Source: an uncultured Chromatiaceae bacterium (GTDB taxonomy: Bacteria; Pseudomonadota; Gammaproteobacteria; DRLM01). Taken from it: a DNA stretch of 64,000 nucleotides. Position numbers and translations under genes: made by a program. The notes below the pieces were generated by a model. That model saw only the letters and a program-made list of their open reading frames with translations. It was not told the DNA's origin and made no database searches. Numbering within the stretch: position 1 is the first letter of the stretch; the number at the start of each line of letters is the position of its first letter. The stretch covers positions 230 through 64,229 of the forward strand of contig CALZJG010000026.1 of the NCBI GenBank assembly GCA_945787555.1. Reading direction: 5' to 3'. Shown piece by piece: positions 7,817-55,075 of the stretch.

Positions 7817-9712
7817 ATGCTGAACTTTCACCAACTTTCACTCTACCGCGGTCCGCGCCTATTATTTCAGGGCGCGACCCTGGCTGTTCATCCCGGTCAC
7901 AAGGTGGGGTTGACCGGCGCCAATGGCACGGGCAAGTCCAGCCTGTTCGCCTTGGTGCGCGGTGAACTCAAACAGGATGCCGGTGATTTCAGCTTGCCGC
8001 CCCATTGGGTCATCGCCCATGTGGCGCAGGAGATGGCGGAGATCGACACGCCCGCCATCGATTTTGTGCTGGGCGGCGATGAAGAGCTGGCGCAGCTCAA
8101 CCTCGAATTGCAGCGCGCAGAGGCTAAATGCGATGGTGCGCATCTCGCCGCCCTGCATGCGCGACTCGATACCATAGAGGGCTACACCGCGCGCAGTCGT
8201 GCGGCGCGGCTCATGCACGGCCTGGGCTTCAGCGCCGCTCAGGAAACGGCGCTGGTGAATACCTTCTCCGGCGGTTGGCGCATGCGGCTCAATCTGGCGC
8301 GGGCATTGATGTGTCGCTCCGACTTGCTGTTGCTCGACGAGCCCACCAATCATCTCGATCTCGATGCTGTGTTATGGCTGGAGGATTGGTTGCGTGCCTA
8401 TCCCGGTACGTTATTGTTGATCTCGCACGATCGCGATTTTCTCGACAACGTAGTCAATTACATTCTACACATCGAGAATCAGGCGCTGCGTTTGTACGGT
8501 GGTAACTATTCGACCTTCGAACGTCGTCGCGCCGAGCAGTTGGCCGGCCAGCAAGCGGCGTATGAAAAACAACAGCATGTAGTGGGCCATATGCAGCGAT
8601 ATGTCGCTCGATTTCGCGCCCAGGCCACCAAGGCGCGTCAAGCGCAGAGCCGCTTGAAGGCGCTGGAGCGCATGACGCAGATCGCGCCTGCGCATGTCGA
8701 CACACCTTTCCATTTCGAATTCTTCTCCCCGCGACAATTGCCGCATCCGCTGCTCAGTCTGGTCAAAGTCGCGGCCGGTTATGGCGATCACACAGTGGTG
8801 AGTGAGGTTACGCTGGAGTTAGCTCCAGGCGACCGGCTCGGTTTGTTGGGCCCCAACGGTGCCGGCAAATCCACCTTGATAAAATTGCTCGCCGGTGAGG
8901 TGGCGCCATCGGCTGGGCGCTTCACACCCAGCGCGGGCTTGCGCGTCGGCTATTTTGCCCAACATCAGCTGGAACAACTGCAGCTTCAAGACAGTCCCTT
9001 GCAACATCTATTGCGTCTCGATCCGCAAGCCTCGGACCAGTCAATGCGTGATTTTCTCGGCAGTTTCGGTTTTGTCGGCGATGACGCCTTGGCACCAGTC
9101 GCACCGTTTTCCGGCGGCGAAAAGGCGCGGTTGGTGTTGGCCTTGTTGGTGTATCAGCGCCCCAATGTATTGCTGCTGGACGAGCCCACCAATCACCTCG
9201 ATCTAGAAATGCGCCATGCCTTGGATATGGCGCTACAGGAATTTGCCGGCGCGCTGGTCTTGGTGTCGCATGATAGGCATTTATTGCGCACGGTGTGTGA
9301 TGCATTCGTGCTGGTCGCCGATGGGAGCGCGCAATTCTATGCGGGCGACTTGGACGATTACCGGCGTTGGTTGTCGCAGCGCGGCGACGCCGCTGCAAGT
9401 GCGACGAGCAAGACTGAACACGGTGCCGAAGCGCGCAAGTCTAAACGTCGTAACGAAGCCGGCCGACGCAATCGCCTGCGCCCTCTCAAGCGCGACGTGG
9501 AGCGCTGGGAAAGTGTCCTGGAAGGTTTGAACGCGGACAAAAGTGCTTTGGAGCAGCAATTGGCCGACCCGGTTGTCTACGAGAGGCAACACAAGGAGCG
9601 GCTGCGTGCGGTGCTGGCAGATCAGGCGCGTTTGCATCAGCAGCTCGCGCACGCCGAGGAGCAATGGTTATTGGTCAGTGAAGCATTGGAGGAAGCCGCG
9701 CGCGAGGATTGA
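7817..9712 (+). CDS. ABC-F family ATPase (two tandem ABC domains, no TMD; YheS/Uup-like translation factor class)
   Basis: Two Walker A motifs (GANGTGKSS and GPNGAGKST), two LSGG signatures, two LLLDEPTNHLD Walker B motifs, an inter-domain linker and a C-terminal charged coiled coil. 631 aa. Confidence 0.85.
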   Translation: MLNFHQLSLYRGPRLLFQGATLAVHPGHKVGLTGANGTGKSSLFALVRGELKQDAGDFSLPPHWVIAHVAQEMAEIDTPAIDFVLGGDEELAQLNLELQRAEAKCDGAHLAALHARLDTIEGYTARSRAARLMHGLGFSAAQETALVNTFSGGWRMRLNLARALMCRSDLLLLDEPTNHLDLDAVLWLEDWLRAYPGTLLLISHDRDFLDNVVNYILHIENQALRLYGGNYSTFERRRAEQLAGQQAAYEKQQHVVGHMQRYVARFRAQATKARQAQSRLKALERMTQIAPAHVDTPFHFEFFSPRQLPHPLLSLVKVAAGYGDHTVVSEVTLELAPGDRLGLLGPNGAGKSTLIKLLAGEVAPSAGRFTPSAGLRVGYFAQHQLEQLQLQDSPLQHLLRLDPQASDQSMRDFLGSFGFVGDDALAPVAPFSGGEKARLVLALLVYQRPNVLLLDEPTNHLDLEMRHALDMALQEFAGALVLVSHDRHLLRTVCDAFVLVADGSAQFYAGDLDDYRRWLSQRGDAAASATSKTEHGAEARKSKRRNEAGRRNRLRPLKRDVERWESVLEGLNADKSALEQQLADPVVYERQHKERLRAVLADQARLHQQLAHAEEQWLLVSEALEEAARED

Positions 9713-10175: not shown

Positions 10176-10344
10176 CAGTCTGTGGAGGCGCGTGGTGTAG
10201 AGGCGAGGTGCAAGCCGCGACGGTGTTGCCGCGGGGCGATAATCTGGCCGCTGCTTACGCCGCGTTGGATGCGCCGCACTCGACGATTATTAAGACGTTA
10301 TGCGTAATAATTAATTCATCAGGCGGCAAAAAGGAGGTAATCAC

Positions 10345-10392
10345 TTGTTAAAAATAGCAGACGATGAATTCAGTCAATACTTAATAAACTGA
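10345..10392 (+). other. 15-codon upstream ORF (TTG start) 6 nt downstream of a perfect AAGGAGGT Shine-Dalgarno sequence, in the AT-rich mscL leader
   Basis: AAAAAGGAGGTAATCAC-TTG tta aaa ata gca gac gat gaa ttc agt caa tac tta ata aac TGA. Ends 20 nt before the mscL ATG. Confidence 0.25.
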
Positions 10393-10412
10393 TTTTGATG
10401 GAGAAAAATATC

Positions 10413-10817
10413 ATGAGCATGATGAAAGAGTTTAAAGAATTTGCGGTTAAGGGCAACGTCATCGATATGGCCGTCGGCATCATTATTGGCGCCGCATTTG
10501 GCAAGATCGTTTCATCCTTTGTTGGCGACGTCATCATGCCGCCAATTGGCGTGCTGTTGGGAGGAGTCGATTTTTCCAGTTTGGCATTCATAGTTAAAGA
10601 GGCCGCAGAGGGCGCGCCAGCCGTTGTGATTAGTTACGGTAAGTTTGTCCAAACGTTGGTCGATTTTACGATTATTGCGTTTGCTATATTCATGGCCGTG
10701 AAGGCTATAAACTCGTTCAAGAAAAAGGAGGAGGCGGCGCCAAAAGCACCGCCAGAGCCTTCCAAGGAAGAAGTGCTGCTTACGGAAATAAGAGACTTGC
10801 TGAAAGATCGCAAGTAA
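10413..10817 (+). CDS. mscL: Large-conductance mechanosensitive channel MscL
   Basis: [46 protein letters not shown]... is nearly identical in pattern to E. coli MscL. C-terminal [13 protein letters not shown] helix. RBS GGAGAAAA. Confidence 0.9.
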
Positions 10818-11238
10818 GTCGCCAGGGCGAGCGCGCCGAACAACAATCGCGTCCGTTATCGCTGCCATGAGGGCCGCCCTGAGATGCAAGGAAGAAGATA
10901 CTTCGCATTGGCCGTCAAAACCTAGTTCGCCGCTGTGGAAAGTCGAAGCGGGTAAGCAGGCTCACGCGGAGGTGGAATAGCACGGTCGTGTATCCGGGCG
11001 CGAAATATTGAGCGTTGGTGCCCGGCGCGCAACGCTCCATCGGCGCCCCTCGGCGGAACAGGGTCAAGCCAGGTGGGAAAGGTTGTTGATGCGGCGGTCG
11101 CCTTGGATGCAGGCGTCTATCGCTTCAACATGCCGCAGATCATGGCCGGCTTGGGCGCGCCGACGGTGGATGAAGCGCCAGCTGCCGAGGTGTGCGTTGC
11201 CGAACCGACTCAAGAATAGGACGACTCCTTCCGCTTTG

Positions 11239-11272
11239 CCGGCCCCGGTTCTTACCGGGGCCGTTTTTTTGC
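11239..11272 (+). terminator. Rho-independent terminator
   Basis: GGCCCCGGT-tctt-ACCGGGGCC followed by GTTTTTTT. Lies 20 nt after a TAG at 11217-11219 that closes a short coding-like frame. Confidence 0.6.
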
Positions 11273-11925
11273 TGCGACTAGAATCGATAGATCAGAGACA
11301 AGAGCATCTCTAAGGATCCACTGACGCCGCGCTGGTGGCGTTGGAAACGAGCTCAAAATATTTATGTAATTGATGTAAACTGTGCTTATTAGCTCGTTGC
11401 CGCCTTGCCATCATCTGTTTGATTGAATTGTTAGAGGCGCCCACAAGGCGATCATTCCGCCGCGGTTCAATTCGCCGTCGATCCGGTCGGTGAAATCGCC
11501 GATCTCTCCGGAGCGCCACTAGCTCACGTCGAGGGAAATACGGCGGAAGGGGTAGCCCAGGCTGAGGCCCCATAGAGATCCACGCGCTCGTGCTCGCAGA
11601 GAAGAGCGATGTTCTGCGCGGCCGGCAGGCTGCCGTGGGACTAGGGCGCCCGCGCTTTGAACGCCGAGCCGGTGAGGAGTTGCGCAGACGGGTCATCCGC
11701 CTGGCGGTGGTATATAACTCAGTACCAGCGACAGTCTGACCGCCTGCCCGGATAGCGCGCCGGTAGGGAGCATGAAGTCGGTCTCCCATGGAATGTGGGG
11801 GGTCGGTACCGGGGGCGGCCCGCACCAGTCTGGCGTGCGCTCCATGTGGGCGGCCATGGATGTGCGCGTTGATTATTGGGCCGTGTTGGGGGTATACAGC
11901 GCGGTTTTTCATCGGAAGTGCAGTC

Positions 11926-12546
11926 ATGATTAAGTTGCGAACCTATATCTTCATCGATTCGCTGCAACCGCAGCTGGCCGAATATCTGGGCACGGTCTCC
12001 CAGGGTTTTCTGCCTATCCCCGGAGATGCCTGTTTATGGCTGGAAGTAGCGCCGGGCATGGCGGTGCATCGGTTGACCGATGCGGCCCTCAAAGCCACTC
12101 GGGTGCGTCTGGTACAACAAGTCGTCGAGCGTGCCTTCGGTTCGATGTTGATCCATCATCGCGATCAGAGTGATGTCCTCGAAGCCGGCCATATCGTCCT
12201 CAATCATCTCAAAACCAGCGAGGATGCGCGGCAGAAGTGCCGTATTGCTTGGGCTGAAATCATCCGTTCCATCACTCCCGACCATGCCGTCGTGATCAAC
12301 CGCCAAGACCGCCGCGGTTCCATGATTCTGCCTGGGCAAAGCATGTTCATCCTCGAAAGCGAGCCCGCCGGTTACATCGTCTACGCGGCCAACGAGGCGG
12401 AAAAAGCCGCCAACATCACCCTCGTCGACGTCAAGGCCGTCGGTGCTTTCGGCCGTCTCACCCTGGCCGGGAAGGAAGCCGACATCGATGCCGCCGCGCA
12501 TGCCGCCATCGACGCACTGCATGGTCTGTCGGGTATAGAGAGCTGA
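11926..12546 (+). CDS. Tandem BMC-domain (bacterial microcompartment shell-like) protein, orphan
   Basis: 206 aa from ATG 11926. Both halves match the BMC/PF00936 pattern. Second half: [57 protein letters not shown] versus PduA-type [48 protein letters not shown]. First half: [36 protein letters not shown]. No other microcompartment gene in the window. Confidence 0.5.
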
Positions 12547-12775
12547 TTCTTGGATCGGCGTCCTGCCCGTGCTCGATACGTAATCCAGCGCAAACATGCC
12601 GGTGGCATTGCGGTTAGGAGGCGGCGAATGAAATGCGCCGCAGCGTCGTTCGCAATTGATGCGGTCGTGTCTCACCGTATTCTACGAAGTGCTGAAGAAC
12701 TCCGCTCGGTATTCCGATCTTTACGCCAATAGGCCGCCGGCCTGGCTGCATGACCTGAATTCAAGGAGCGCCGAT

Positions 12776-14011
12776 TTAGCTTTGCCGTATTGATCTTGCC
12801 AAACGCTCGATGGTCAGGCCTTGTACTAGGATTGAAAACACCACCACGATGTAGGTCAGCGTGAGCAGCAGACTGCGCTCCGGTCCGGCAGGCAGGGAGA
12901 GCACCAACGCGACCGAGATGCCGCCCCGTAACCCACCCCAGGTGAGGATCTTGACGACGCCGGGGCTGAACGTTCGGAGCGGGCGCATGGCGCCTACTAG
13001 CGTGCCGACGCTGATGAAGCGCGCCAGCAAGGCGGCCGGGATCATCAATGCCGCCGCGATCAAAAACTCAGCGCTGACTTTGAGCGCCAGCAGCTCCAGG
13101 CCGATGAGCAGGAACAATACGGTGTTGAGCACTTCGTCGATCAGATGCCAGAACTGGTCGATGTGTTCGCGACTCTTGTCGCTCATCCCCAGCCGCCGGC
13201 CGTGGTTGCCGACCAGGAGTCCAGCCACCACCATGGCCAACGGCCCCGAGATATGGAGGGCATCGGCCAGCGCGTAGCCGCCCATCACCAGCGCCAGCGT
13301 GATCAAGACTTCCACTTGATATTGGTCGATACTGCGCAGCATCAAATAGCCAAGATAGCCCAGCAGGAGGCCAAACAGCGCTCCACCCACCGCCTCTTGC
13401 AGAAACAGCAGCCCGATTTCAGCGGCGCTCACTTCATGTCCGCCCACGGCGATGCCGAGCAGCACCAGGAATACCACCACTGCTACGCCGTCATTGAACA
13501 GCGATTCCCCGGCGATCTTGATCTCCAGCGACTTGGACACGCCGGCGGTTTTGAGAATGCCCATCACGGCGATCGGGTCGGTGGGCGAGATCAGGGCGCC
13601 AAAAAGCAGGCAATAGACAAAGGGCAGCGAGATCCCCAGCCAAGCGAAGATGTACCAAGCCGCGATAGCTAGCAGCAGCGAGGAAATCAGTACGCCGCCG
13701 GTGGCGAGCGTGAGTATCAGCCACTTCTGCTTGGCCAGGTCGTTAATATTGACATGCAGCGCCCCGGCGAAGAGCAGAAAACTCAGCATGCCCTGCATCA
13801 GCGCCTCGGTGAAATCGATGCTCTGCACCAAGTCCTTGGCATAATGCACCGATTGCACGCCCAGCGCGCCGGCAATGATGACAAGAAGTGATGCCGCCAT
13901 CGCGATGACCATGACACCGATGGTGGTCGGCAGGCCGATGTAGCGGTAGTTGAGATAGCTGAACACCGCGGCGAGCGTGATCAGGATGGCGATGATGTTG
14001 AGCAGTTCCAT
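12776..14011 (-). CDS. CPA1-family Na+(K+)/H+ antiporter (NhaP-type)
   Basis: 411-aa, about 12-TM protein with the LISPTDP motif and overall NhaP2 architecture. Confidence 0.8.
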   Translation of the reverse strand: MELLNIIAILITLAAVFSYLNYRYIGLPTTIGVMVIAMAASLLVIIAGALGVQSVHYAKDLVQSIDFTEALMQGMLSFLLFAGALHVNINDLAKQKWLILTLATGGVLISSLLLAIAAWYIFAWLGISLPFVYCLLFGALISPTDPIAVMGILKTAGVSKSLEIKIAGESLFNDGVAVVVFLVLLGIAVGGHEVSAAEIGLLFLQEAVGGALFGLLLGYLGYLMLRSIDQYQVEVLITLALVMGGYALADALHISGPLAMVVAGLLVGNHGRRLGMSDKSREHIDQFWHLIDEVLNTVLFLLIGLELLALKVSAEFLIAAALMIPAALLARFISVGTLVGAMRPLRTFSPGVVKILTWGGLRGGISVALVLSLPAGPERSLLLTLTYIVVVFSILVQGLTIERLARSIRQS

Positions 14012-14401
14012 GATATGTCACGTCAGGTGAGGGGGGGGAAGCGTCGGTCTCAGAATCTAGCAGATGCAGCTAAGGCTACACCCGCTGTGTCGCTGCGCTG
14101 TGGGTCGCGGTTCCGGGAGATGATCTGACAGGGAGCAGATTCTCATCTTAATCCCGGTCGGTTGCCTCCTATTGGGGGATACTTAGCTCGGCGTTAACGA
14201 TGCCTCATGCTTGAAGCTGAGTAGGCAATGGCTTCTTCACTCCCTCTTCCGGGGATAGGAGAGGGCCGAGATGAGGGCCTAGAGAAAATCGCCAACCTTC
14301 GGGGAGTACTTCTTTTTCTAGTCCTCTCCCTTGACCCTGCGGGCCGTGGTCCCTTCTTATCCGCTATAATCTCCCCCCAGACCCATCGCACAACCGCTTC
14401 C

Positions 14402-15913
14402 ATGTCTGACATACTCCTCACCACCCTCAACGCTCGTTATTTCCACGCCTCATTGGGGCTGCGGTACTTACTCGCCAATCTGGGCGAGTTGGCGGAGCGG
14501 GCGCGGCTAATGGAATACATTGTCGACTCGCGGTCAGCGGATATTGTCGAGGGCTTATTGCGTCACGAGCCGCGCATCGTCGGCTTAGGGGTGTATATCT
14601 GGAACGTCGAGCTGGCCACGCAGGTGGTGGCGATGCTCAAACAGGTGCGGCCCGAGTTAGTGGTGGTACTCGGCGGGCCGGAGGTGAGTTACGAGCAAGA
14701 GGCGCAGGAGATCTGCGCGCTGGCCGATTACGTGATCGCCGGGCCGGGCGAATTGGCCTTCGCCGATCTATGTCGGCGGGTGCTGGCCGGTGAGCGGCCC
14801 GCGCAGCGTTTGATCGCCGCGCCGACGCCGCGCCTGGCCGACTTGGTCATGCCCTACCAACATTACACCGACGAGGACATCGCGCAGCGTTTCTTGTACG
14901 TGGAGGCGTCGCGCGGCTGTCCCTACAAATGCGAGTTTTGCTTGTCGGCGCTGGACAAAACCGCCTGGCCGTTCGAGTTGGAGCGCTTTCTCGAGGAAAT
15001 GGCCGCGCTGTATCGACGCGGCGCCCGCCATTTTAAGTTCGTCGATCGCACTTTCAATCTCAAGATCGACACCAGTGTGCGTATCCTCGAATTTTTTTTG
15101 GAGCGCCTGGACGAGAAGCTATTCCTGCATTTCGAGTTGATCCCCGACCATTTGCCCGAGCGCTTGAAGGCGGTGATCACGCGTTTTCCGCCCGGTAGTC
15201 TGCAGTTCGAAGTCGGTATTCAAACCTTCAATCCCGAGGTGCAGGCACGCATCAGCCGCCGTCAGGACGACGCCAAGGCAGAGAGCAATCTGCGCTGGTT
15301 GCGCAACGAAACCCATGCCCATCTGCATACCGACCTCATCGCCGGTTTGCCGGGCGAGAATTTGGCCAGCTTCGGCGCGGGCTTTGATCGGCTCATTGCG
15401 CTTGATCCGCACGAAATCCAAGTGGGCATATTGAAGCGTTTGCGCGGCGCGCCCGTTATTCGCCACACCGAAGCGCACCTCATGCGCTACAACCCGTATC
15501 CGCCTTACAACGTGTTGGCCAGCGATAGGCTCGACTTCATCACCTTGCAACGCATCAACCGCTTCGCGCGCTATTGGGACATGATTGGCAACTCCGGGCG
15601 TTTTCGTGTCAGCCGATCCTTGATACTGGGTGAGGCTCCTTACCTGCGCTTCATGGCCTTGAGTGATTGGCTCTACGCCGAGACCGGTAAGACCCATCGC
15701 ATCGCCTTGGATCGATTGTTCGAGCTGGTGTTTCGCGGTATGGCCACGCAGTTGGATGTGACGCATGAGGCCGCGGTGGCGGCGCTGGGCGAGGATTACG
15801 CCGCCTGCGGCGGTCGTGCCGAGCTTAGTTTTCTGCCCTCTACTGGACGGTCACGCCAGGTTGTGGCGACGCGCGCGGTCGGGCTGCAACGCCAGCGTCG
15901 CCACCTGGGTTGA
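14402..15913 (+). CDS. B12-binding-domain radical SAM protein (DUF4080 class)
   Basis: N-terminal cobalamin-binding-like domain, then the radical SAM CxxxCxxC cluster (GCPYKCEFC). ATG 14402 is in frame with the longer ORF. Confidence 0.75.
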   Translation: MSDILLTTLNARYFHASLGLRYLLANLGELAERARLMEYIVDSRSADIVEGLLRHEPRIVGLGVYIWNVELATQVVAMLKQVRPELVVVLGGPEVSYEQEAQEICALADYVIAGPGELAFADLCRRVLAGERPAQRLIAAPTPRLADLVMPYQHYTDEDIAQRFLYVEASRGCPYKCEFCLSALDKTAWPFELERFLEEMAALYRRGARHFKFVDRTFNLKIDTSVRILEFFLERLDEKLFLHFELIPDHLPERLKAVITRFPPGSLQFEVGIQTFNPEVQARISRRQDDAKAESNLRWLRNETHAHLHTDLIAGLPGENLASFGAGFDRLIALDPHEIQVGILKRLRGAPVIRHTEAHLMRYNPYPPYNVLASDRLDFITLQRINRFARYWDMIGNSGRFRVSRSLILGEAPYLRFMALSDWLYAETGKTHRIALDRLFELVFRGMATQLDVTHEAAVAALGEDYAACGGRAELSFLPSTGRSRQVVATRAVGLQRQRRHLG

Positions 15914-16275: not shown

Positions 16276-17460
16276 ATGGCACCTTGCAGTATTTCCGTTT
16301 CTCTTTCTTCTCTTCATCGTGCACTGATCCTACTGTTCCCCTTGTTACTCCTAGTTCCCGCCGTCCAGGCCGTGCCGCTGTCGTTGGCTCACGGCACGGG
16401 GGATATGCTGCTGCTCGAAGGCGCGAGTCAAAGCGTGTTGCGCATCAGCCCCGCCGGCGCGGTGTCGGTGGAGGTGGCCCGCCATGACATCCTCGCGCTG
16501 ACCGGCGGTTCGAGAGCCTATTTCAATGATCGCGGCATCGCCGTGGATGCGCGCGGCGATTTCTATTTCACTGATTACATGACCTGCATCCTGCTCAAGA
16601 AGTCCGGCGATCAATTGAGTGTGTTGGTGCGTCCATCCCGGAGCTATGACTTGTTGGGTGGTGTGGTCGATCCCAATGGGCTGGTCGTGGGCGGCGACGG
16701 CGGATTGTATGCCAGCGACGAGTTGTCGGATTCGGTGCTGCGCATCGACGCTGAAAGCGGTGAGCTGCGCATCTTCACGGCTCATGAGGCCATGGCCGGG
16801 CTGCCGGGGATAGCCGGTGTCAATCTGGTAGGCGGCATGGCCATTGGTCATGACGAGACGATTTATGTGCAAACCGATCGTGATGTGGATGCGATCTTCG
16901 CCATCGACGAGAGCGGCGTTCCACGGGTGCTGGTGACCGAAGACGATTTGCGCGCGCTAGGCGTAGAGCATCCTTCCTTTTCCGGCTTTATGACCATCGC
17001 CCCCAACGGCGATCTCATCGTCGCCTCCACGGACATGCCACGGAGTATTTACCGCATCACGCCCGCTGGGCAGATCAGTCTGTTCTTGTCGGAGGAAACA
17101 CTGACTGCCGTGGTGGGCACCCTCGGCACCTTGAGCATCGGTGCCGGCATGGCTTTCGACTCGCTAGGCAATTTCTATCTGGCCGAGGAAGGGAGCGACA
17201 GTATCTTCAAATGGCTGGTGGCCGACATGGCGACGGGTACCATCGATGCGGCGTCGGGATTCAGTTTCGTATCGGCGCAGACGCTGTATGACGCTACCGG
17301 GTATCACCCGGATTTGAAGGGGGGCATCGCCTTCCTGCCCGTGCCAGTACCGTCGAGCTTGGCGCGGGTGCAGGCCGTGACGACACCGGCGTCATTGCCG
17401 CTGCTGGGTATTGGTCTGCTGACCTTAGTGGTAATGCGTCGGCGTGGTCGAGTACGGTGA
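16276..17460 (+). CDS. Secreted NHL-repeat beta-propeller protein with degenerate PEP-CTERM-like C-terminal anchor
   Basis: Signal peptide (LLFPLLLLVPAVQA). Repeated GDFYFTDY, GGLYASDELSDSVLRID and GNFYLAEEGSDSIFKW blades. C-terminus VPVPSSLA...TPASLPLLGIGLLTLVVMRRRGRVR matches a PEP-CTERM-type signature (Pro-rich motif, TM helix, Arg cluster). Confidence 0.65.
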   Translation: MAPCSISVSLSSLHRALILLFPLLLLVPAVQAVPLSLAHGTGDMLLLEGASQSVLRISPAGAVSVEVARHDILALTGGSRAYFNDRGIAVDARGDFYFTDYMTCILLKKSGDQLSVLVRPSRSYDLLGGVVDPNGLVVGGDGGLYASDELSDSVLRIDAESGELRIFTAHEAMAGLPGIAGVNLVGGMAIGHDETIYVQTDRDVDAIFAIDESGVPRVLVTEDDLRALGVEHPSFSGFMTIAPNGDLIVASTDMPRSIYRITPAGQISLFLSEETLTAVVGTLGTLSIGAGMAFDSLGNFYLAEEGSDSIFKWLVADMATGTIDAASGFSFVSAQTLYDATGYHPDLKGGIAFLPVPVPSSLARVQAVTTPASLPLLGIGLLTLVVMRRRGRVR

Positions 17461-21141: not shown

Positions 21142-21534
21142 CTACTTTCTGGCAGCCGTTTTCCTTTTGGCGGTTTTCTTTCTGGCCGTTTTCTTTTTCC
21201 CGGCCTTTTTCTTACCAGCCCGCTTCTTGCCGGCGACCTTCTTCTTGGCCGCTTTTTTCTTACCGGCTTTCTTCTTGGCCGCTTTTTTCTTGCCGGCCTT
21301 CTTCTTGGCTACCTTCTTCTTGGCAGCCTTTTTCTTGCCGACCTTCTTTTTGGCTACTTTCTTCTTAGCAGCCTTTTTCTTGCCGGCTTTTTTCTTGCCG
21401 GCCTTCTTGCGGCCTGCGGCCTTCTTGGTGGTCGCCTTTCTTTTAGCGGTTACTTTCTTCCTTGCTACCGCTTTCTTCGTCGTCGACTTCCGCTTGGCAG
21501 TCGACTTCTTTTTGGTGGATTTCTTCGTCGCCAT
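21142..21534 (-). CDS. Histone H1-like Lys/Ala-rich nucleoid protein (AlgP/Hc1-like)
   Basis: 130 aa, almost entirely AKKK/KKAA repeats. Perfect SD AAGGAGGA 6 nt upstream of the ATG. The opposite-strand frame translates to FFLAAFF nonsense. Confidence 0.75.
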   Translation of the reverse strand: MATKKSTKKKSTAKRKSTTKKAVARKKVTAKRKATTKKAAGRKKAGKKKAGKKKAAKKKVAKKKVGKKKAAKKKVAKKKAGKKKAAKKKAGKKKAAKKKVAGKKRAGKKKAGKKKTARKKTAKRKTAARK

Positions 21535-22333: not shown

Positions 22334-23020
22334 TTAACGCGCGAAGAAGTGGAGTCTGGTCTCGGTGGCGATGCCGTCCAAGGGTATGTCCCAAGGTTGG
22401 GTGGTGAGCGTCGAAACGTGCTGGCACTCATGTGCATAGCCCAGCAAGCGCGGTTTGCGCCAATGGCGACGATGCCACAGAAACGCCAGCGTGCGATCAT
22501 AATAGCCGCCCCCCATGCCCAACCGATTGCCGTGATCATCGAAAGCCACCAGCGGCACTAGCATTAGATCCAAGCTTCGGGCGCTGATTGCACGCAGGCC
22601 GGCGTAGTCCGGCTCCGGTATGCCGTAGCGATTGGGGCTCAGGGCGTCGCCATGGTGATAGGGGACAAATCCCAAACGTCCATTTCGAGTGATGATGGGT
22701 AAATAGCAGCGTTTGCCCAGCGCCCAAGCGCGCGTGAGTAACGGCCAGGGATCCAGTTCGCCATCGTTGCTGAGATAGAAAGCGATGTGTTGGCTACGAC
22801 GGAACAGGGTATTGGCCGTCACTAAACGCGCGGCACAACGGGCGGCATCGACTTGTTGGTGCTGGTCGAGGCTGCGACGCCGGTCGCGCATCCAGCGGCG
22901 GATGTCGGCGCGTGAGGCGTCGGGCGGGGGATTAAAAGGGGTCGACGCAGACGAGGGCTGGTGTTGGCCGGGGGGCTGTGGCTTCATCCGTTCTGTGCTT
23001 CGCATAGATGGAAAGTGCAT
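22334..23020 (-). CDS. 5-formyltetrahydrofolate cyclo-ligase
   Basis: LVPLVAFDDHGNRLGMGGGYYDRTL and GYAHECQHV match E. coli YgfA. The start is uncertain (ATG at 23020, 23005 or 22987). Confidence 0.8.
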   Translation of the reverse strand: MHFPSMRSTERMKPQPPGQHQPSSASTPFNPPPDASRADIRRWMRDRRRSLDQHQQVDAARCAARLVTANTLFRRSQHIAFYLSNDGELDPWPLLTRAWALGKRCYLPIITRNGRLGFVPYHHGDALSPNRYGIPEPDYAGLRAISARSLDLMLVPLVAFDDHGNRLGMGGGYYDRTLAFLWHRRHWRKPRLLGYAHECQHVSTLTTQPWDIPLDGIATETRLHFFAR

Positions 23021-23024
23021 CCTC

Positions 23025-23212
23025 CACGAGAACCGTCGCCAACCTTCGCCCTTGAACCATCAGGTTCAGGTGGGGAAGCGTGCGGCGCCTCAGGCTTTCC
23101 GCTCGGTGGCGGACATGCACACCGGCGTCGTCGAAGCGTCCCCGTAGCGAAAGTATTAGGGTCAAGGAGAATGATGGTTCGCTGACGAGAGCCGCAGAGG
23201 ATGCGAGAAGAT
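23025..23212 (-). ncRNA. ssrS: 6S RNA (ssrS)
   Basis: About 190 nt between zapA and the cyclo-ligase, the conserved ssrS position. The minus-strand read contains ...UCGACGACGCCGGUGUGCAUG... and ...ACCUGAACCUGAUGGUUCAAGGG..., resembling E. coli 6S ...GCGACGACACAUUCACCUUGAACCAAGGGUUCAAGGG. Ends are approximate. Confidence 0.6.
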
Positions 23213-31251: not shown

Positions 31252-31324
31252 TGCTGTGATAGGGTTGCGCCGCGCTTGGTTTCCCCACTGCAGCCCGGTA
31301 TAGTGTGCCACTCAACCACTCCAC

Positions 31325-31510
31325 TGCGGGAGAGACCCCGTCCGTCTTGAATGATCCGACTGCGGATGCAAGATAGACGCGGGCGCCGAAGGCGCAACCA
31401 GCCCGGAATCGCTCAGGCAAAAGGACCGTAGTGGCAAGGTGACTCTGGAGAGAGGCCGTGACCCGGCCCACCGAAGGGGCACAAGCTCTCAGGTACCCGG
31501 ACAGAGGGGC
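31325..31510 (+). ncRNA. Glycine riboswitch (tandem aptamers) in the gcvT leader
   Basis: Aptamer 1 has GGGAGAG...GCGGGCGCCGAAGGCGCAA...CTCAGGCAAAAGGAC. Aptamer 2 has CTCTGGAGAG...CCCACCGAAGGGGCA...CTCTCAGG...ACAGAGG. Both match the glycine-riboswitch consensus. Confidence 0.8.
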
Positions 31511-54199: not shown

Positions 54200-55075
54200 C
54201 TAGGCGCCGGTGATCAGGCGCTTCTGCTCCATCATGTCGTGAATGATGGGGGTAAGCATGATCTCCATGGCAAAACCCATCTTGCCGCCCGGCACCACGA
54301 TGGTGTTGGGGCGCGACATCCATGAGCCCTCGATCATTTGCAAGTAATACGGGAAGTCATGCTTCTTCGGGTAGCGGAAGCGGATCACGATGAAGCTTTC
54401 ATCCGGCGTGGGTATGTCACGGGCGATAAAAGGGTTGGAGGTGTCGACACTGGACACACGCTGGAAGTTGATGTCGGTGCGCGAGAACTGCGGCGTAACG
54501 TATTTCACGTAATCGGGCATGCGGCGCAGGATGGTCTCCACGATGGCCTCGGCCGAGTAGCCCCGCTCCTTGTTGTCGCGATGAATTTTCTGTATCCACT
54601 CCAGATTGACGATGGGCACCACGCCGATCAGTAGGTCCACCCACTGGGCCACGTCCGCGCCCTCGGACACGACACCGCCGTGCAGGCCTTCGTAGAACAG
54701 CAGGTCCGAGGCCGGAATGGGCGCCCAGTCCGTGAACGTGCCGGGCTGTGAACCGTGCAGAACCGCTTCCTCGCTGTTGTGCACGTAGTAACGGCGTTGG
54801 CCGCCGCCGGTCTCGCCGTAGGCGCGGAACAATTCTTCCAATTTCTCGAACAGATTGGCCTCGGCGCCGAAGTGACTGATCGTTTTGCCATCATTCTTTG
54901 CGGCCTCGACCACTTTCTTCATCTCGGCGCGGTCGAATTTGTGAAAACTGTCGCCCTCTACAATGGCAGGTTTGATGCCTTCGCGCCGGAAAATATGCTC
55001 GAAAGCATTCTTCACCGTGGTGGTGCCTGCGCCCGATGAGCCGGTTACAGCGATTATGGGATGTTTGTTGGACAT
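54200..55075 (-). CDS. prk: Phosphoribulokinase (bacterial-type, Calvin cycle)
   Basis: IIAVTGSSGAGTTTV P-loop and overall strong similarity to bacterial CbbP/PrkB. 291 aa. Confidence 0.9.
   Translation of the reverse strand: MSNKHPIIAVTGSSGAGTTTVKNAFEHIFRREGIKPAIVEGDSFHKFDRAEMKKVVEAAKNDGKTISHFGAEANLFEKLEELFRAYGETGGGQRRYYVHNSEEAVLHGSQPGTFTDWAPIPASDLLFYEGLHGGVVSEGADVAQWVDLLIGVVPIVNLEWIQKIHRDNKERGYSAEAIVETILRRMPDYVKYVTPQFSRTDINFQRVSSVDTSNPFIARDIPTPDESFIVIRFRYPKKHDFPYYLQMIEGSWMSRPNTIVVPGGKMGFAMEIMLTPIIHDMMEQKRLITGA

What the first reader, a model, noticed from the sequence alone, without database searches (positions are those of the whole stretch)
11926..12546. Orphan tandem-BMC-domain shell-like protein with no microcompartment locus around it
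The 206-aa product has two consecutive domains with the BMC (PF00936) sequence pattern. No carboxysome or metabolosome genes are within 50 kb on either side. Its neighbours are mscL, a degenerate non-coding stretch and an NhaP antiporter. The organism encodes phosphoribulokinase, so a carboxysome is plausible. Tandem-BMC proteins such as CsoS1D are known to be encoded away from the main cso operon. This may be a satellite shell or pore protein, or a BMC fold used for something else.
Basis: partly seen in the sequence, partly recalled or inferred. Interest (0 to 1): 0.65.

Follow-up and report, generated by a model that had tools for sequence, protein, structure and literature searches.

The report
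Stand-alone carboxysome pore gene csoS1D
This is an intact, ordinary copy of csoS1D, the gated-pore shell protein of the CO2-fixing alpha-carboxysome. In this bacterium it sits far from the main carboxysome operon, which is present elsewhere in the genome of the same species.

Summary
The ORF at 11926-12546(+) is real and encodes a 206-aa CsoS1D orthologue. It matches the solved CsoS1D structures along its full length: Halothiobacillus 7DHQ at E=3e-88 and Prochlorococcus 3F56 at E=1e-87. It keeps the gating pore motif E68-R69-A70-F71 and both edge lysines. Against orthologues that sit next to a cso operon, dN/dS is about 0.025.

The N-terminal half does not reach significance against PF00936 (E=0.2). 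That is the known "cryptic" BMC domain of this family (precomputed Pfam PF27545, CsoS1D_N).

No other BMC, CsoS4, RuBisCO, CsoS2 or CsoSCA gene lies in the 64-kb window. Two MAGs of the same species carry a complete cbbR-cbbLS-csoS2-csoSCA-csoS4AB-csoS1 operon with bicarbonate-transporter genes, on another contig. In one of those MAGs, another contig carries this same gene.

In the closest relatives (95-96% aa) csoS1D lies tail-to-tail with cbbR. Here only the gene, about 60-80 nt of promoter-bearing leader and about 20 nt downstream have moved.

Among 81 other CsoS1D loci, 46 lie within 10 kb of cso genes. 18 with full flanks do not. Satellite csoS1D loci are common, and the literature already notes them.

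This is a new member of a well-known kind, of low interest.

The parts
11926..12546 (+). csoS1D coding sequence (206 aa plus stop): the tandem-BMC (BMC-T, double-stacking/permuted class) alpha-carboxysome shell protein
11926..12234 (+). N-terminal 'cryptic' BMC-fold domain (residues 1-103). It contains the edge motif D52-x-x-x-K56 and the pore loop.
   Evidence: Ungapped alignment to the N-domain of 3F56/7DHQ. PF00936 reaches only E=0.2. Precomputed PF27545 CsoS1D_N. D52 and K56 are invariant in 61 sequences.
12127..12138 (+). Codons for the pore motif E68-R69-A70-F71. E68/R69 are the gating Glu/Arg pair, equal to Glu145/Arg146 in 3F56 chain numbering and Glu120/Arg121 in Prochlorococcus native numbering.
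   Evidence: Alignment register (query 2 = chain 79, ungapped). E68, R69 and F71 are invariant. The role of these residues comes from PMC3173617 and PMC13316943.
12235..12543 (+). C-terminal canonical BMC domain (residues 104-206) with edge lysine K160
   Evidence: PF00936 E=1.2e-5, above the cutoff. K160 is invariant.
11869..11898 (+). Promoter-like element TTGATT-N18-TATACA. Its counterpart TTGACT-N17-TATACA sits at the same distance from the ATG in the relatives L002, L005 and L083. Inferred, not demonstrated.
   Evidence: Sequence and alignment A1. The consensus scanner did not report it because the -10 hexamer ends in A.
11914..11918 (+). Shine-Dalgarno-like GGAAG, 7 nt before the ATG; conserved in relatives

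Best explanation
The gene encodes the alpha-carboxysomal shell protein CsoS1D.

How the protein most likely works (by homology to the solved orthologues):
- Each chain folds into two permuted BMC domains.
- Three chains form a pseudohexamer that tiles into the shell facet through the edge lysines K56 and K160.
- Two trimers stack face to face.
- The central pore of each trimer is opened and closed by the E68/R69 latch. This gives an 'air-lock' route for large metabolites (RuBP, 3-PGA) across the shell.

How the gene is arranged. In this species it is a monocistronic satellite locus with its own promoter-like element, between mscL and a convergent nhaP. The main cso operon (cbbR, cbbLS, csoS2, csoSCA, csoS4AB, two csoS1, bfr-like, PCD-like, parA-like, SulP, SbtA, PII) lies on another contig. 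In MAG GCA_947259935.1 it is at least about 45 kb away.

The satellite position most likely arose by fission from the ancestral mazG-csoS1D-cbbR arrangement still seen in the nearest relatives.

Shown here: identity of the protein, conservation of the functional residues, purifying selection, presence of the cso operon in conspecific genomes, and the relocation relative to close relatives.

Inferred: oligomeric state, gating, incorporation into the shell, promoter activity, and the mechanism of relocation.
For: Protein identity.
- phmmer against PDB gives 7DHQ (H. neapolitanus CsoS1D) at E=3e-88 and 3F56 (P. marinus CsoS1D) at E=1.2e-87, over residues 2-196 and 2-202.
- Scores then fall in the order HO BMC-T (241 bits), CcmP (197 bits), RMM BMC-T. 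EutL- and PduB-type proteins are insignificant.
- More than 7,800 database homologues were found. All 120 listed carry PF00936 plus PF27545 CsoS1D_N.
- Foldseek with an MSA-based AF2 model returns CsoS1D chains first (E=2e-22, prob 1.00).

Functional residues. The pore motif ERAF and the edge residues D52/K56 and K160 are invariant in 61 sequences. They match the residues named in PMC3173617 and PMC13316943.

Selection. dN/dS is 0.024-0.028 against the cso-adjacent orthologues L002, L005 and L083, with dS of about 1.1.

The operon exists in the same species.
- Contig 66 of GCA_947259935.1 carries this gene with 100% nucleotide identity over 10.8-15 kb of the window.
- Contig 84 of the same MAG carries the full cso operon.
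- A second conspecific MAG, GCA_947259805.1, has the same operon at 99.3% nucleotide identity.
- GC content (0.60) and tetranucleotide correlation (r=0.97) of those contigs match the window.
- The CsoSCA of that operon belongs to the same small clade as those of L002, L005 and L083: 79-98% identity, with the next hits at 61%. CsoS1D groups the same way, which argues for vertical descent.

Relocation. In L002, L005 and L083 csoS1D is 1.4-1.6 kb from cbbL. Homology to the window is limited to the gene, about 35 nt (clear) to about 80 nt (weaker) upstream, and about 20 nt downstream.

Satellite loci are common. 18 of 64 assessable CsoS1D loci have no cso gene within 8-10 kb or more. [quoted passage not shown]
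Against: - The window's own assembly could not be identified. The operon is shown for conspecific MAGs, not for the exact genome the window comes from. MAG binning could in principle be wrong.
- The AF2 model is only moderate (pLDDT 67.6, pTM 0.55). It superposes poorly as a whole on the crystal structures (TM about 0.40, rmsd about 15 A). Structural support therefore rests on sequence homology to solved structures, not on the model.
- No expression, oligomerisation or localisation data exist.
- The promoter is a consensus-like match only.
Confidence: 0.9

Rival explanations
1. Extra copy. The genome still has (or had) a canonical csoS1D next to cbbR, hidden in the assembly gap. The gene in the window would then be a duplicated or horizontally acquired second copy, possibly redundant.
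For: Both conspecific cso contigs begin within 43-170 nt of the 3' end of cbbR. That is exactly where csoS1D sits in relatives, so what lies there is unseen.
Against: - The exact protein is recorded on only three contigs. Those read have the same mscL/nhaP context.
- Contig 66 runs through the gene without a break. An identical second copy would make that unlikely.
- The first 56 nt of L087 encode what looks like the N-terminus of a transposase rather than csoS1D.
- The gene's GC and GC3 are typical of the window.
- It groups with the same clade as the species' own CsoSCA.
Confidence: 0.06
2. Exaptation. The tandem-BMC protein has been recruited to a function unrelated to carboxysomes, perhaps linked to its membrane-transport neighbours (MscL, NhaP).
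For: The only support is the physical separation from the cso operon and the adjacency to ion-channel and antiporter genes.
Against: - The protein is 95-96% identical to orthologues adjacent to cso operons, with dN/dS of about 0.025.
- Pore and edge residues are all retained.
- None of the other 81 CsoS1D loci has MscL or NhaP homologues nearby, so the adjacency is not conserved.
- nhaP is convergent, and mscL is separated by 1.1 kb and a strong terminator.
Confidence: 0.02
3. Decaying relic. The gene was stranded by a rearrangement and is no longer expressed or needed.
For: CsoS1D is a low-copy shell component whose loss may be partly compensated by other shell proteins (PMC13316943).
Against: - The reading frame is intact, with the RBS and the promoter-like element conserved.
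- There are only 12-14 non-synonymous against 85-89 synonymous differences to relatives, at dS of about 1.1. This shows long-term purifying selection on the lineage.
Confidence: 0.02

Closest known systems
CsoS1D of Halothiobacillus neapolitanus (PDB 7DHQ) and Prochlorococcus marinus MED4 (PDB 3F56/3FCH)
   Same: Full-length homology (298 and 296 bits; Foldseek reports 60-68% identity). Same tandem permuted BMC domains, ERAF pore loop with the gating Glu/Arg, edge lysines and length class. Like the proteobacterial form, it lacks the roughly 50-aa cyanobacterial N-terminal extension.
   Different: Gene position. In Prochlorococcus the gene is about 1 kb upstream of csoS1-cbbL, across ham1. In most proteobacterial loci here it is 1.2-6.4 kb downstream of the operon. 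In the window it is on its own, with the operon on another contig.
csoS1D of the nearest uncultured gammaproteobacterial relatives (L002 Hainich-H32-bin066-1, L005 Biocath_Gamma_008, L083 GCA_023266095.1)
   Same: 95-96% amino-acid identity. Same leader with the TTGAYT/TATACA promoter-like element and the RBS.
   Different: There the order is mazG-csoS1D then cbbR (tail to tail) then cbbL and the rest of the cso operon. None of these neighbours is in the window.
CcmP (beta-carboxysome BMC-T; PDB 4HT5, 5LSR)
   Same: Same protein class and the same Glu69/Arg70 gating pair at the equivalent position. It is typically encoded away from the main ccm locus.
   Different: Only about 39-40% identity. 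The NCBIfam CcmP equivalog model scores 238 bits, below its cutoff of 340. The associated operon here is the alpha (cso) type, not ccm.
Satellite shell-protein loci of BMCs (for example ccmK3/K4; Sutter et al. catalogue)
   Same: A shell-protein-only locus distal from the main locus. The catalogue describes some such loci as arising by fission from the main locus and as possibly allowing separate regulation of shell permeability.
   Different: Nothing here shows separate regulation. In the close relatives csoS1D is already its own transcription unit.

Membership tests
CsoS1D (alpha-carboxysomal BMC-T, double-stacking/permuted class) | Full-length sequence homology to experimentally characterised CsoS1D, better than to any other BMC-T class | tested here: met
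   7DHQ scores 298 bits and 3F56 296 bits. HO BMC-T scores 241, CcmP 197 and RMM BMC-T 158/126.
CsoS1D (alpha-carboxysomal BMC-T, double-stacking/permuted class) | Two tandem BMC-fold domains, the N-terminal one cryptic at sequence level | tested here: met
   C-terminal half: PF00936 E=1.2e-5. N-terminal half: E=0.2. Precomputed PF27545 CsoS1D_N. In the AF2 model the secondary-structure order repeats in both halves. The global superposition of the model is poor (TM 0.40).
CsoS1D (alpha-carboxysomal BMC-T, double-stacking/permuted class) | Conserved gating pore loop Glu-Arg-Ala-Phe | tested here: met
   E68, R69, A70 and F71 align to Glu145/Arg146 of the 3F56 chain. E68, R69 and F71 are invariant in 61 sequences. 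The motif is defined in PMC3173617 and PMC13316943.
CsoS1D (alpha-carboxysomal BMC-T, double-stacking/permuted class) | Edge lysines (D/N-x-x-x-K) in both domains for tiling into the facet | tested here: met
   D52...K56 and N156...K160 are invariant. The motif is described in PMC3173617.
CsoS1D (alpha-carboxysomal BMC-T, double-stacking/permuted class) | Co-occurrence with a cso (alpha-carboxysome) operon in the same genome | tested here: met
   GCA_947259935.1 has the gene on contig 66 and the operon on contig 84. A second conspecific MAG has the operon. This is not shown for the window's own assembly, which could not be identified.
CsoS1D (alpha-carboxysomal BMC-T, double-stacking/permuted class) | Trimeric pseudohexamer that stacks as a dimer of trimers, with open and closed pore states | not testable with these tools
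   Only monomer prediction is available. The feature is inferred from homology to 3F56/3FCH/7DHQ.
CsoS1D (alpha-carboxysomal BMC-T, double-stacking/permuted class) | Physical presence in the carboxysome shell | not testable with these tools
   Requires proteomics of purified carboxysomes.
CcmP (beta-carboxysome) | Score at or above the NCBIfam NF053796 equivalog cutoff (340 bits) | tested here: not met
   238.1 bits. It is a homologue, not a member.
EutL/PduB-type BMC-T (single-layer trimers of metabolosomes) | Significant match to EutL/PduB models or structures | tested here: not met
   TIGR04502 EutL gives E=0.077 at 12.5 bits against a cutoff of 300. Foldseek E-values are about 1e-6 with 15-19% identity.

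The most novel reading that the evidence does not exclude
In this lineage csoS1D was split from the cso locus, possibly by an insertion-sequence-mediated rearrangement next to cbbR. It may now be regulated independently of the operon, letting the cell tune carboxysome shell permeability to cues other than those sensed by CbbR. Its new neighbours, mscL and nhaP, would suggest osmotic or ionic/pH cues.
Probability: 0.08. Interest if true: 0.35.

Novelty: new member of a known kind. Interest (0 to 1): 0.1.

Why it matters
It matters little beyond annotation. The gene should be named csoS1D, not "BMC domain-containing protein" or "hypothetical".

Together with the cso operon, the SbtA/PII/SulP transporter genes and prk, it shows that this uncultured gammaproteobacterium has a complete alpha-carboxysome CO2-concentrating mechanism.

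The locus is a clean natural example of a main-locus-to-satellite fission. The moved unit is the gene plus about 60-80 nt of leader. It could serve comparative studies of how satellite shell-protein loci arise.

Tried and rejected
- Single-sequence AF2 gave an unusable model (pLDDT 35). The 61-sequence MSA model was only moderate, and its global superposition was poor. I therefore rely on sequence homology to the solved structures.
- I tried to identify the window's own assembly through a protein that differs from the L001 version. No exact record was found, and the exact look-up of three other window proteins also failed.
- I searched the 1.1-kb spacer (10818-11925) and the 229-nt downstream spacer for pseudogene remnants of mazG, cbbR or cso genes, and for repeats. 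tblastx and blastn against all held loci gave only noise, and there is no second copy in the window. Rfam gave only sub-threshold hits on the terminator hairpin. There are no flanking direct or inverted repeats of note.
- I tried to join the start of the cso contigs (L086, L087) to the window by sequence. There is no match.
- I tested for conserved adjacency of CsoS1D with MscL, NhaP or radical-SAM homologues in 81 other loci. None was found, so a functional link with the neighbours was rejected.
- dN/dS against L001 is uninformative because the genes are 100% identical at the nucleotide level. More distant relatives were used instead.

Full report
**1. The observation**

The window holds an ORF at 11926-12546(+) of 206 codons. 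A longer in-frame ORF begins at 11788, but three things support the ATG at 11926:
- A GGAAG ribosome-binding site lies 7 nt upstream.
- Orthologues align from residue 1.
- The 46-residue upstream extension is not conserved in the nearest relative.

- mscL at 10395-10817(+);
- about 1.1 kb without a convincing gene;
- a convergent NhaP-type Na+/H+ exchanger at 12776-14011(-);
- a B12-binding radical-SAM gene at 14228-15913(+).

Phosphoribulokinase is at 54200-55075(-).

**2. What the protein is**

Pfam places the whole protein in PF00936 (34.2 bits against a 24.5 cutoff, two stretches). Scanned as halves, the C-terminal half is significant (E=1.2e-5). The N-terminal half is not (E=0.2).

The decisive result is the comparison with solved structures.
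- The protein aligns over essentially its full length to CsoS1D of Halothiobacillus neapolitanus (7DHQ, E=3e-88). The first 103 residues align without gaps.
- It aligns equally well to CsoS1D of Prochlorococcus marinus MED4 (3F56, E=1.2e-87).
- Weaker matches follow: the CsoS1D-like BMC-T of Haliangium (241 bits), CcmP (197 bits) and the RMM BMC-T proteins.
- The EutL and PduB types are not significant.

The NCBIfam CcmP equivalog model scores 238 bits, below its 340 cutoff. The protein is therefore the alpha-type orthologue and not CcmP.

Precomputed annotations give PF27545 (CsoS1D_N) plus PF00936 for this exact protein and for all 120 listed homologues. More than 7,800 homologues have E<=1e-10.

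The insignificant PF00936 score of the N-terminal half is the family's known peculiarity. [quoted passage not shown]

**3. Functional residues**

In the ungapped alignment, query residue 2 equals chain residue 79 of 3F56. E68 and R69 therefore correspond to Glu145/Arg146 of that chain. These are Glu120/Arg121 in native numbering and Glu69/Arg70 in CcmP. This is the electrostatic latch that opens and closes the trimer pore (PMC13316943; PMC3173617).

- The pore motif listed for CsoS1D is ERAF. Here it is E68-R69-A70-F71.
- E68, R69, F71, the edge residues D52/K56 and K160 are invariant in an alignment of 61 family members.

An AF2 model built from that alignment is of moderate quality (pLDDT 67.6, pTM 0.55). 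Both halves show the same order of strands and helices, with the ERAF loop between strands 61-67 and 72-78.

Foldseek against the PDB returns the CsoS1D chains first (E=2e-22, probability 1.00). The global TM-score is only about 0.40 and the rmsd about 15 A. The model adds little beyond the sequence match. A single-sequence model was useless.

**4. Is it really an orphan?**

Within the window, yes.
- tblastn with the Prochlorococcus cso proteins taken from locus L059 finds nothing in the window.
- tblastn with all 15 proteins of the cso region of the same species finds nothing below E=0.1.
- HMMs built from 64-71 CsoS1, CsoS4A and CsoS4B sequences hit only the csoS1D ORF itself, weakly.

The rest of the window is housekeeping: phosphate ABC transporter, ABC-F, rpiA, ilvA, ubiquinone hydroxylases, the glycine cleavage system, TolQR/TonB-like genes, sulfite reductase, prk and topA.

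Within the genome, no.
- The exact protein is encoded on contig 66 (151,784 bp) of MAG GCA_947259935.1. That contig is 100% identical to the window over roughly 10.8-15 kb and 95% identical over 19 kb.
- I searched with the CsoSCA of the nearest relative and looked up the hits.
- Contig 84 of the same MAG carries cbbR, cbbL, cbbS, csoS2, csoSCA, csoS4A, csoS4B, two csoS1, a bacterioferritin-like gene, a pterin-dehydratase-like gene, a parA-like gene, SulP, SbtA, a PII (SbtB-like) gene and fructose-bisphosphate aldolase.
- A second conspecific MAG, GCA_947259805.1, has the same operon at 99.3% nucleotide identity.
- GC content and tetranucleotide usage of these contigs match the window.

In GCA_947259935.1 the gene lies 45 kb and 106 kb from the ends of its contig. 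The operon is therefore at least about 45 kb away. I could not identify the window's own assembly, so for that genome the operon is inferred from conspecifics.

**5. Comparative context**

A scan of one genome per species returned 500 or more CsoS1D loci, of which 80 were kept. With L083 added there are 81 loci apart from this species' own loci:

| Class | Loci |
|---|---|
| cso genes within the held flanks | 46 (36 with the operon upstream of csoS1D, 10 downstream) |
| no cso genes, with at least 8 kb on both sides | 18 |
| contig too short to decide | 17 |

The 18 loci without nearby cso genes are mainly Thiocapsa, Thiohalocapsa and Halochromatium, plus Synechococcus and Cyanobium. Stand-alone csoS1D loci are therefore common. 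[quoted passage not shown]

The three closest relatives (95-96% amino-acid identity: L002, L005, L083) all have the order mazG, csoS1D, then cbbR tail to tail, then cbbL and the rest of the operon 1.4-1.6 kb away.

Homology between these loci and the window is confined to three parts:
- the gene;
- about 35 nt of clearly alignable leader, and up to about 80 nt of weaker similarity;
- about 20 nt downstream.

The leader carries a promoter-like element, TTGATT-N18-TATACA (11869-11898). The relatives have TTGACT-N17-TATACA in the same position. In the relatives, too, csoS1D is its own transcription unit, pointing away from the cbbR-cbbL control region. The relocation has therefore not obviously changed how it is expressed.

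The CsoSCA of this species' operon and its CsoS1D both group with the same small clade. This favours an intragenomic relocation of a vertically inherited gene over foreign acquisition.

dN/dS against the three cso-adjacent orthologues is 0.024-0.028, at dS of about 1.1. The gene has stayed under strong purifying selection.

**6. Mechanism**

By homology, and not tested here:
- three chains form a pseudohexamer that tiles into the CsoS1 facet through K56 and K160;
- two trimers stack across their concave faces;
- the E68/R69 latch switches each pore between closed and about 14 A open;
- this gives an air-lock passage for RuBP and 3-PGA.

I put 0.9 on the statement that this is a functional satellite csoS1D serving the carboxysome encoded elsewhere.

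**7. Rivals**

- A hidden second copy beside cbbR cannot be excluded. Both conspecific cso contigs begin 43-170 nt beyond the cbbR stop. However, the sequence at the contig start looks like the beginning of a transposase gene rather than csoS1D (the transposase identification rests on memory only). The gene's own contig runs through it unbroken.
- Exaptation to a role with MscL or NhaP is unsupported, because the adjacency is not conserved in any other locus.
- Decay is contradicted by the intact frame and the low dN/dS.

**8. Verdict**

This is a new member of a well-characterised family in an arrangement already recognised in the literature, so interest is low (0.1).

The only mildly novel reading left open is that the fission allows independent regulation of shell permeability (probability about 0.08).

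Noticed in passing
window 10818-11925, especially 11073-11263(+): The 1.1-kb 'degenerate' spacer contains a strong intrinsic terminator (10-bp stem with 9 GC pairs, then T7) at 11240-11263(+). A 48-codon ORF precedes it at 11073-11219 (MGKVVDAAVALDAGVYRFNMPQIMAGLGAPTVDEAPAAEVCVAEPTQE). The conspecific MAG annotation instead calls two Arg/Pro-rich hypothetical ORFs on the minus strand (200 and 99 aa, no Pfam), which look spurious. There is no homology in any held locus and only sub-threshold Rfam hits (suhB/mmgR, E=0.02). It may be a small protein or sRNA gene.
   Followed up: partly
L086 1-43 and L087 1-170 (cso-operon contigs of GCA_947259935.1 and GCA_947259805.1): In two independent conspecific MAGs the cso contig starts just beyond the 3' end of cbbR, where csoS1D sits in relatives. 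The reverse complement of the first 56 nt of L087 encodes MRDKDLYAQILGIEKPWQ, which resembles the N-terminus of an IS transposase (from memory, not tested). A repeat at this point would explain the assembly breaks. It hints at an IS-mediated rearrangement that separated csoS1D from the operon.
   Followed up: partly
L086 43-1022(-): cbbR of GCA_947259935.1 is split by a frameshift near codon 60 into ORFs of 77 and 260 aa. It is intact (325 aa) in GCA_947259805.1. This is either an assembly error or a strain-specific pseudogene of the carboxysome regulator.
   Followed up: partly
window 21142-21534(-): A 130-aa Lys/Ala-rich, histone-H1-like repeat protein (AKKKAAKKK...) is encoded by 15/30/45-nt tandem repeats at 21155-21415. 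The repeat number differs from the conspecific contig L001, which is about 200 nt shorter. Local GC drops to 0.49.
   Followed up: partly
window 23017-23203(-): 6S RNA (RF00013, 94.7 bits), next to the 5-formyltetrahydrofolate cyclo-ligase gene. This is the usual ssrS-ygfA arrangement.
   Followed up: no
window 31317-31506(+): Tandem glycine riboswitch aptamers (RF00504, 63.8 and 48.3 bits) upstream of gcvT, followed by the glycine cleavage genes gcvP1/gcvP2.
   Followed up: no
window 16276-17460(+): A 394-aa secreted protein without Pfam hits. It ends in a PEP-CTERM-like sorting tail (VPVPSSL...LLGIGLLTLVVMRRRGRVR).
   Followed up: no
window 1943-22769 versus L001: Nucleotide identity to the conspecific MAG contig is mosaic: 100% around csoS1D/nhaP/rSAM but only 79-83% in the ABC-F gene around 9000-9600. 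This suggests recombination between strains or chimeric MAG consensus.
   Followed up: no
L086/L087 about 10176-13895: Directly downstream of the cso operon of this species lie SulP-family, SbtA-family and PII (SbtB-like) genes. This is a probable bicarbonate-uptake module that completes the CO2-concentrating mechanism.
   Followed up: no
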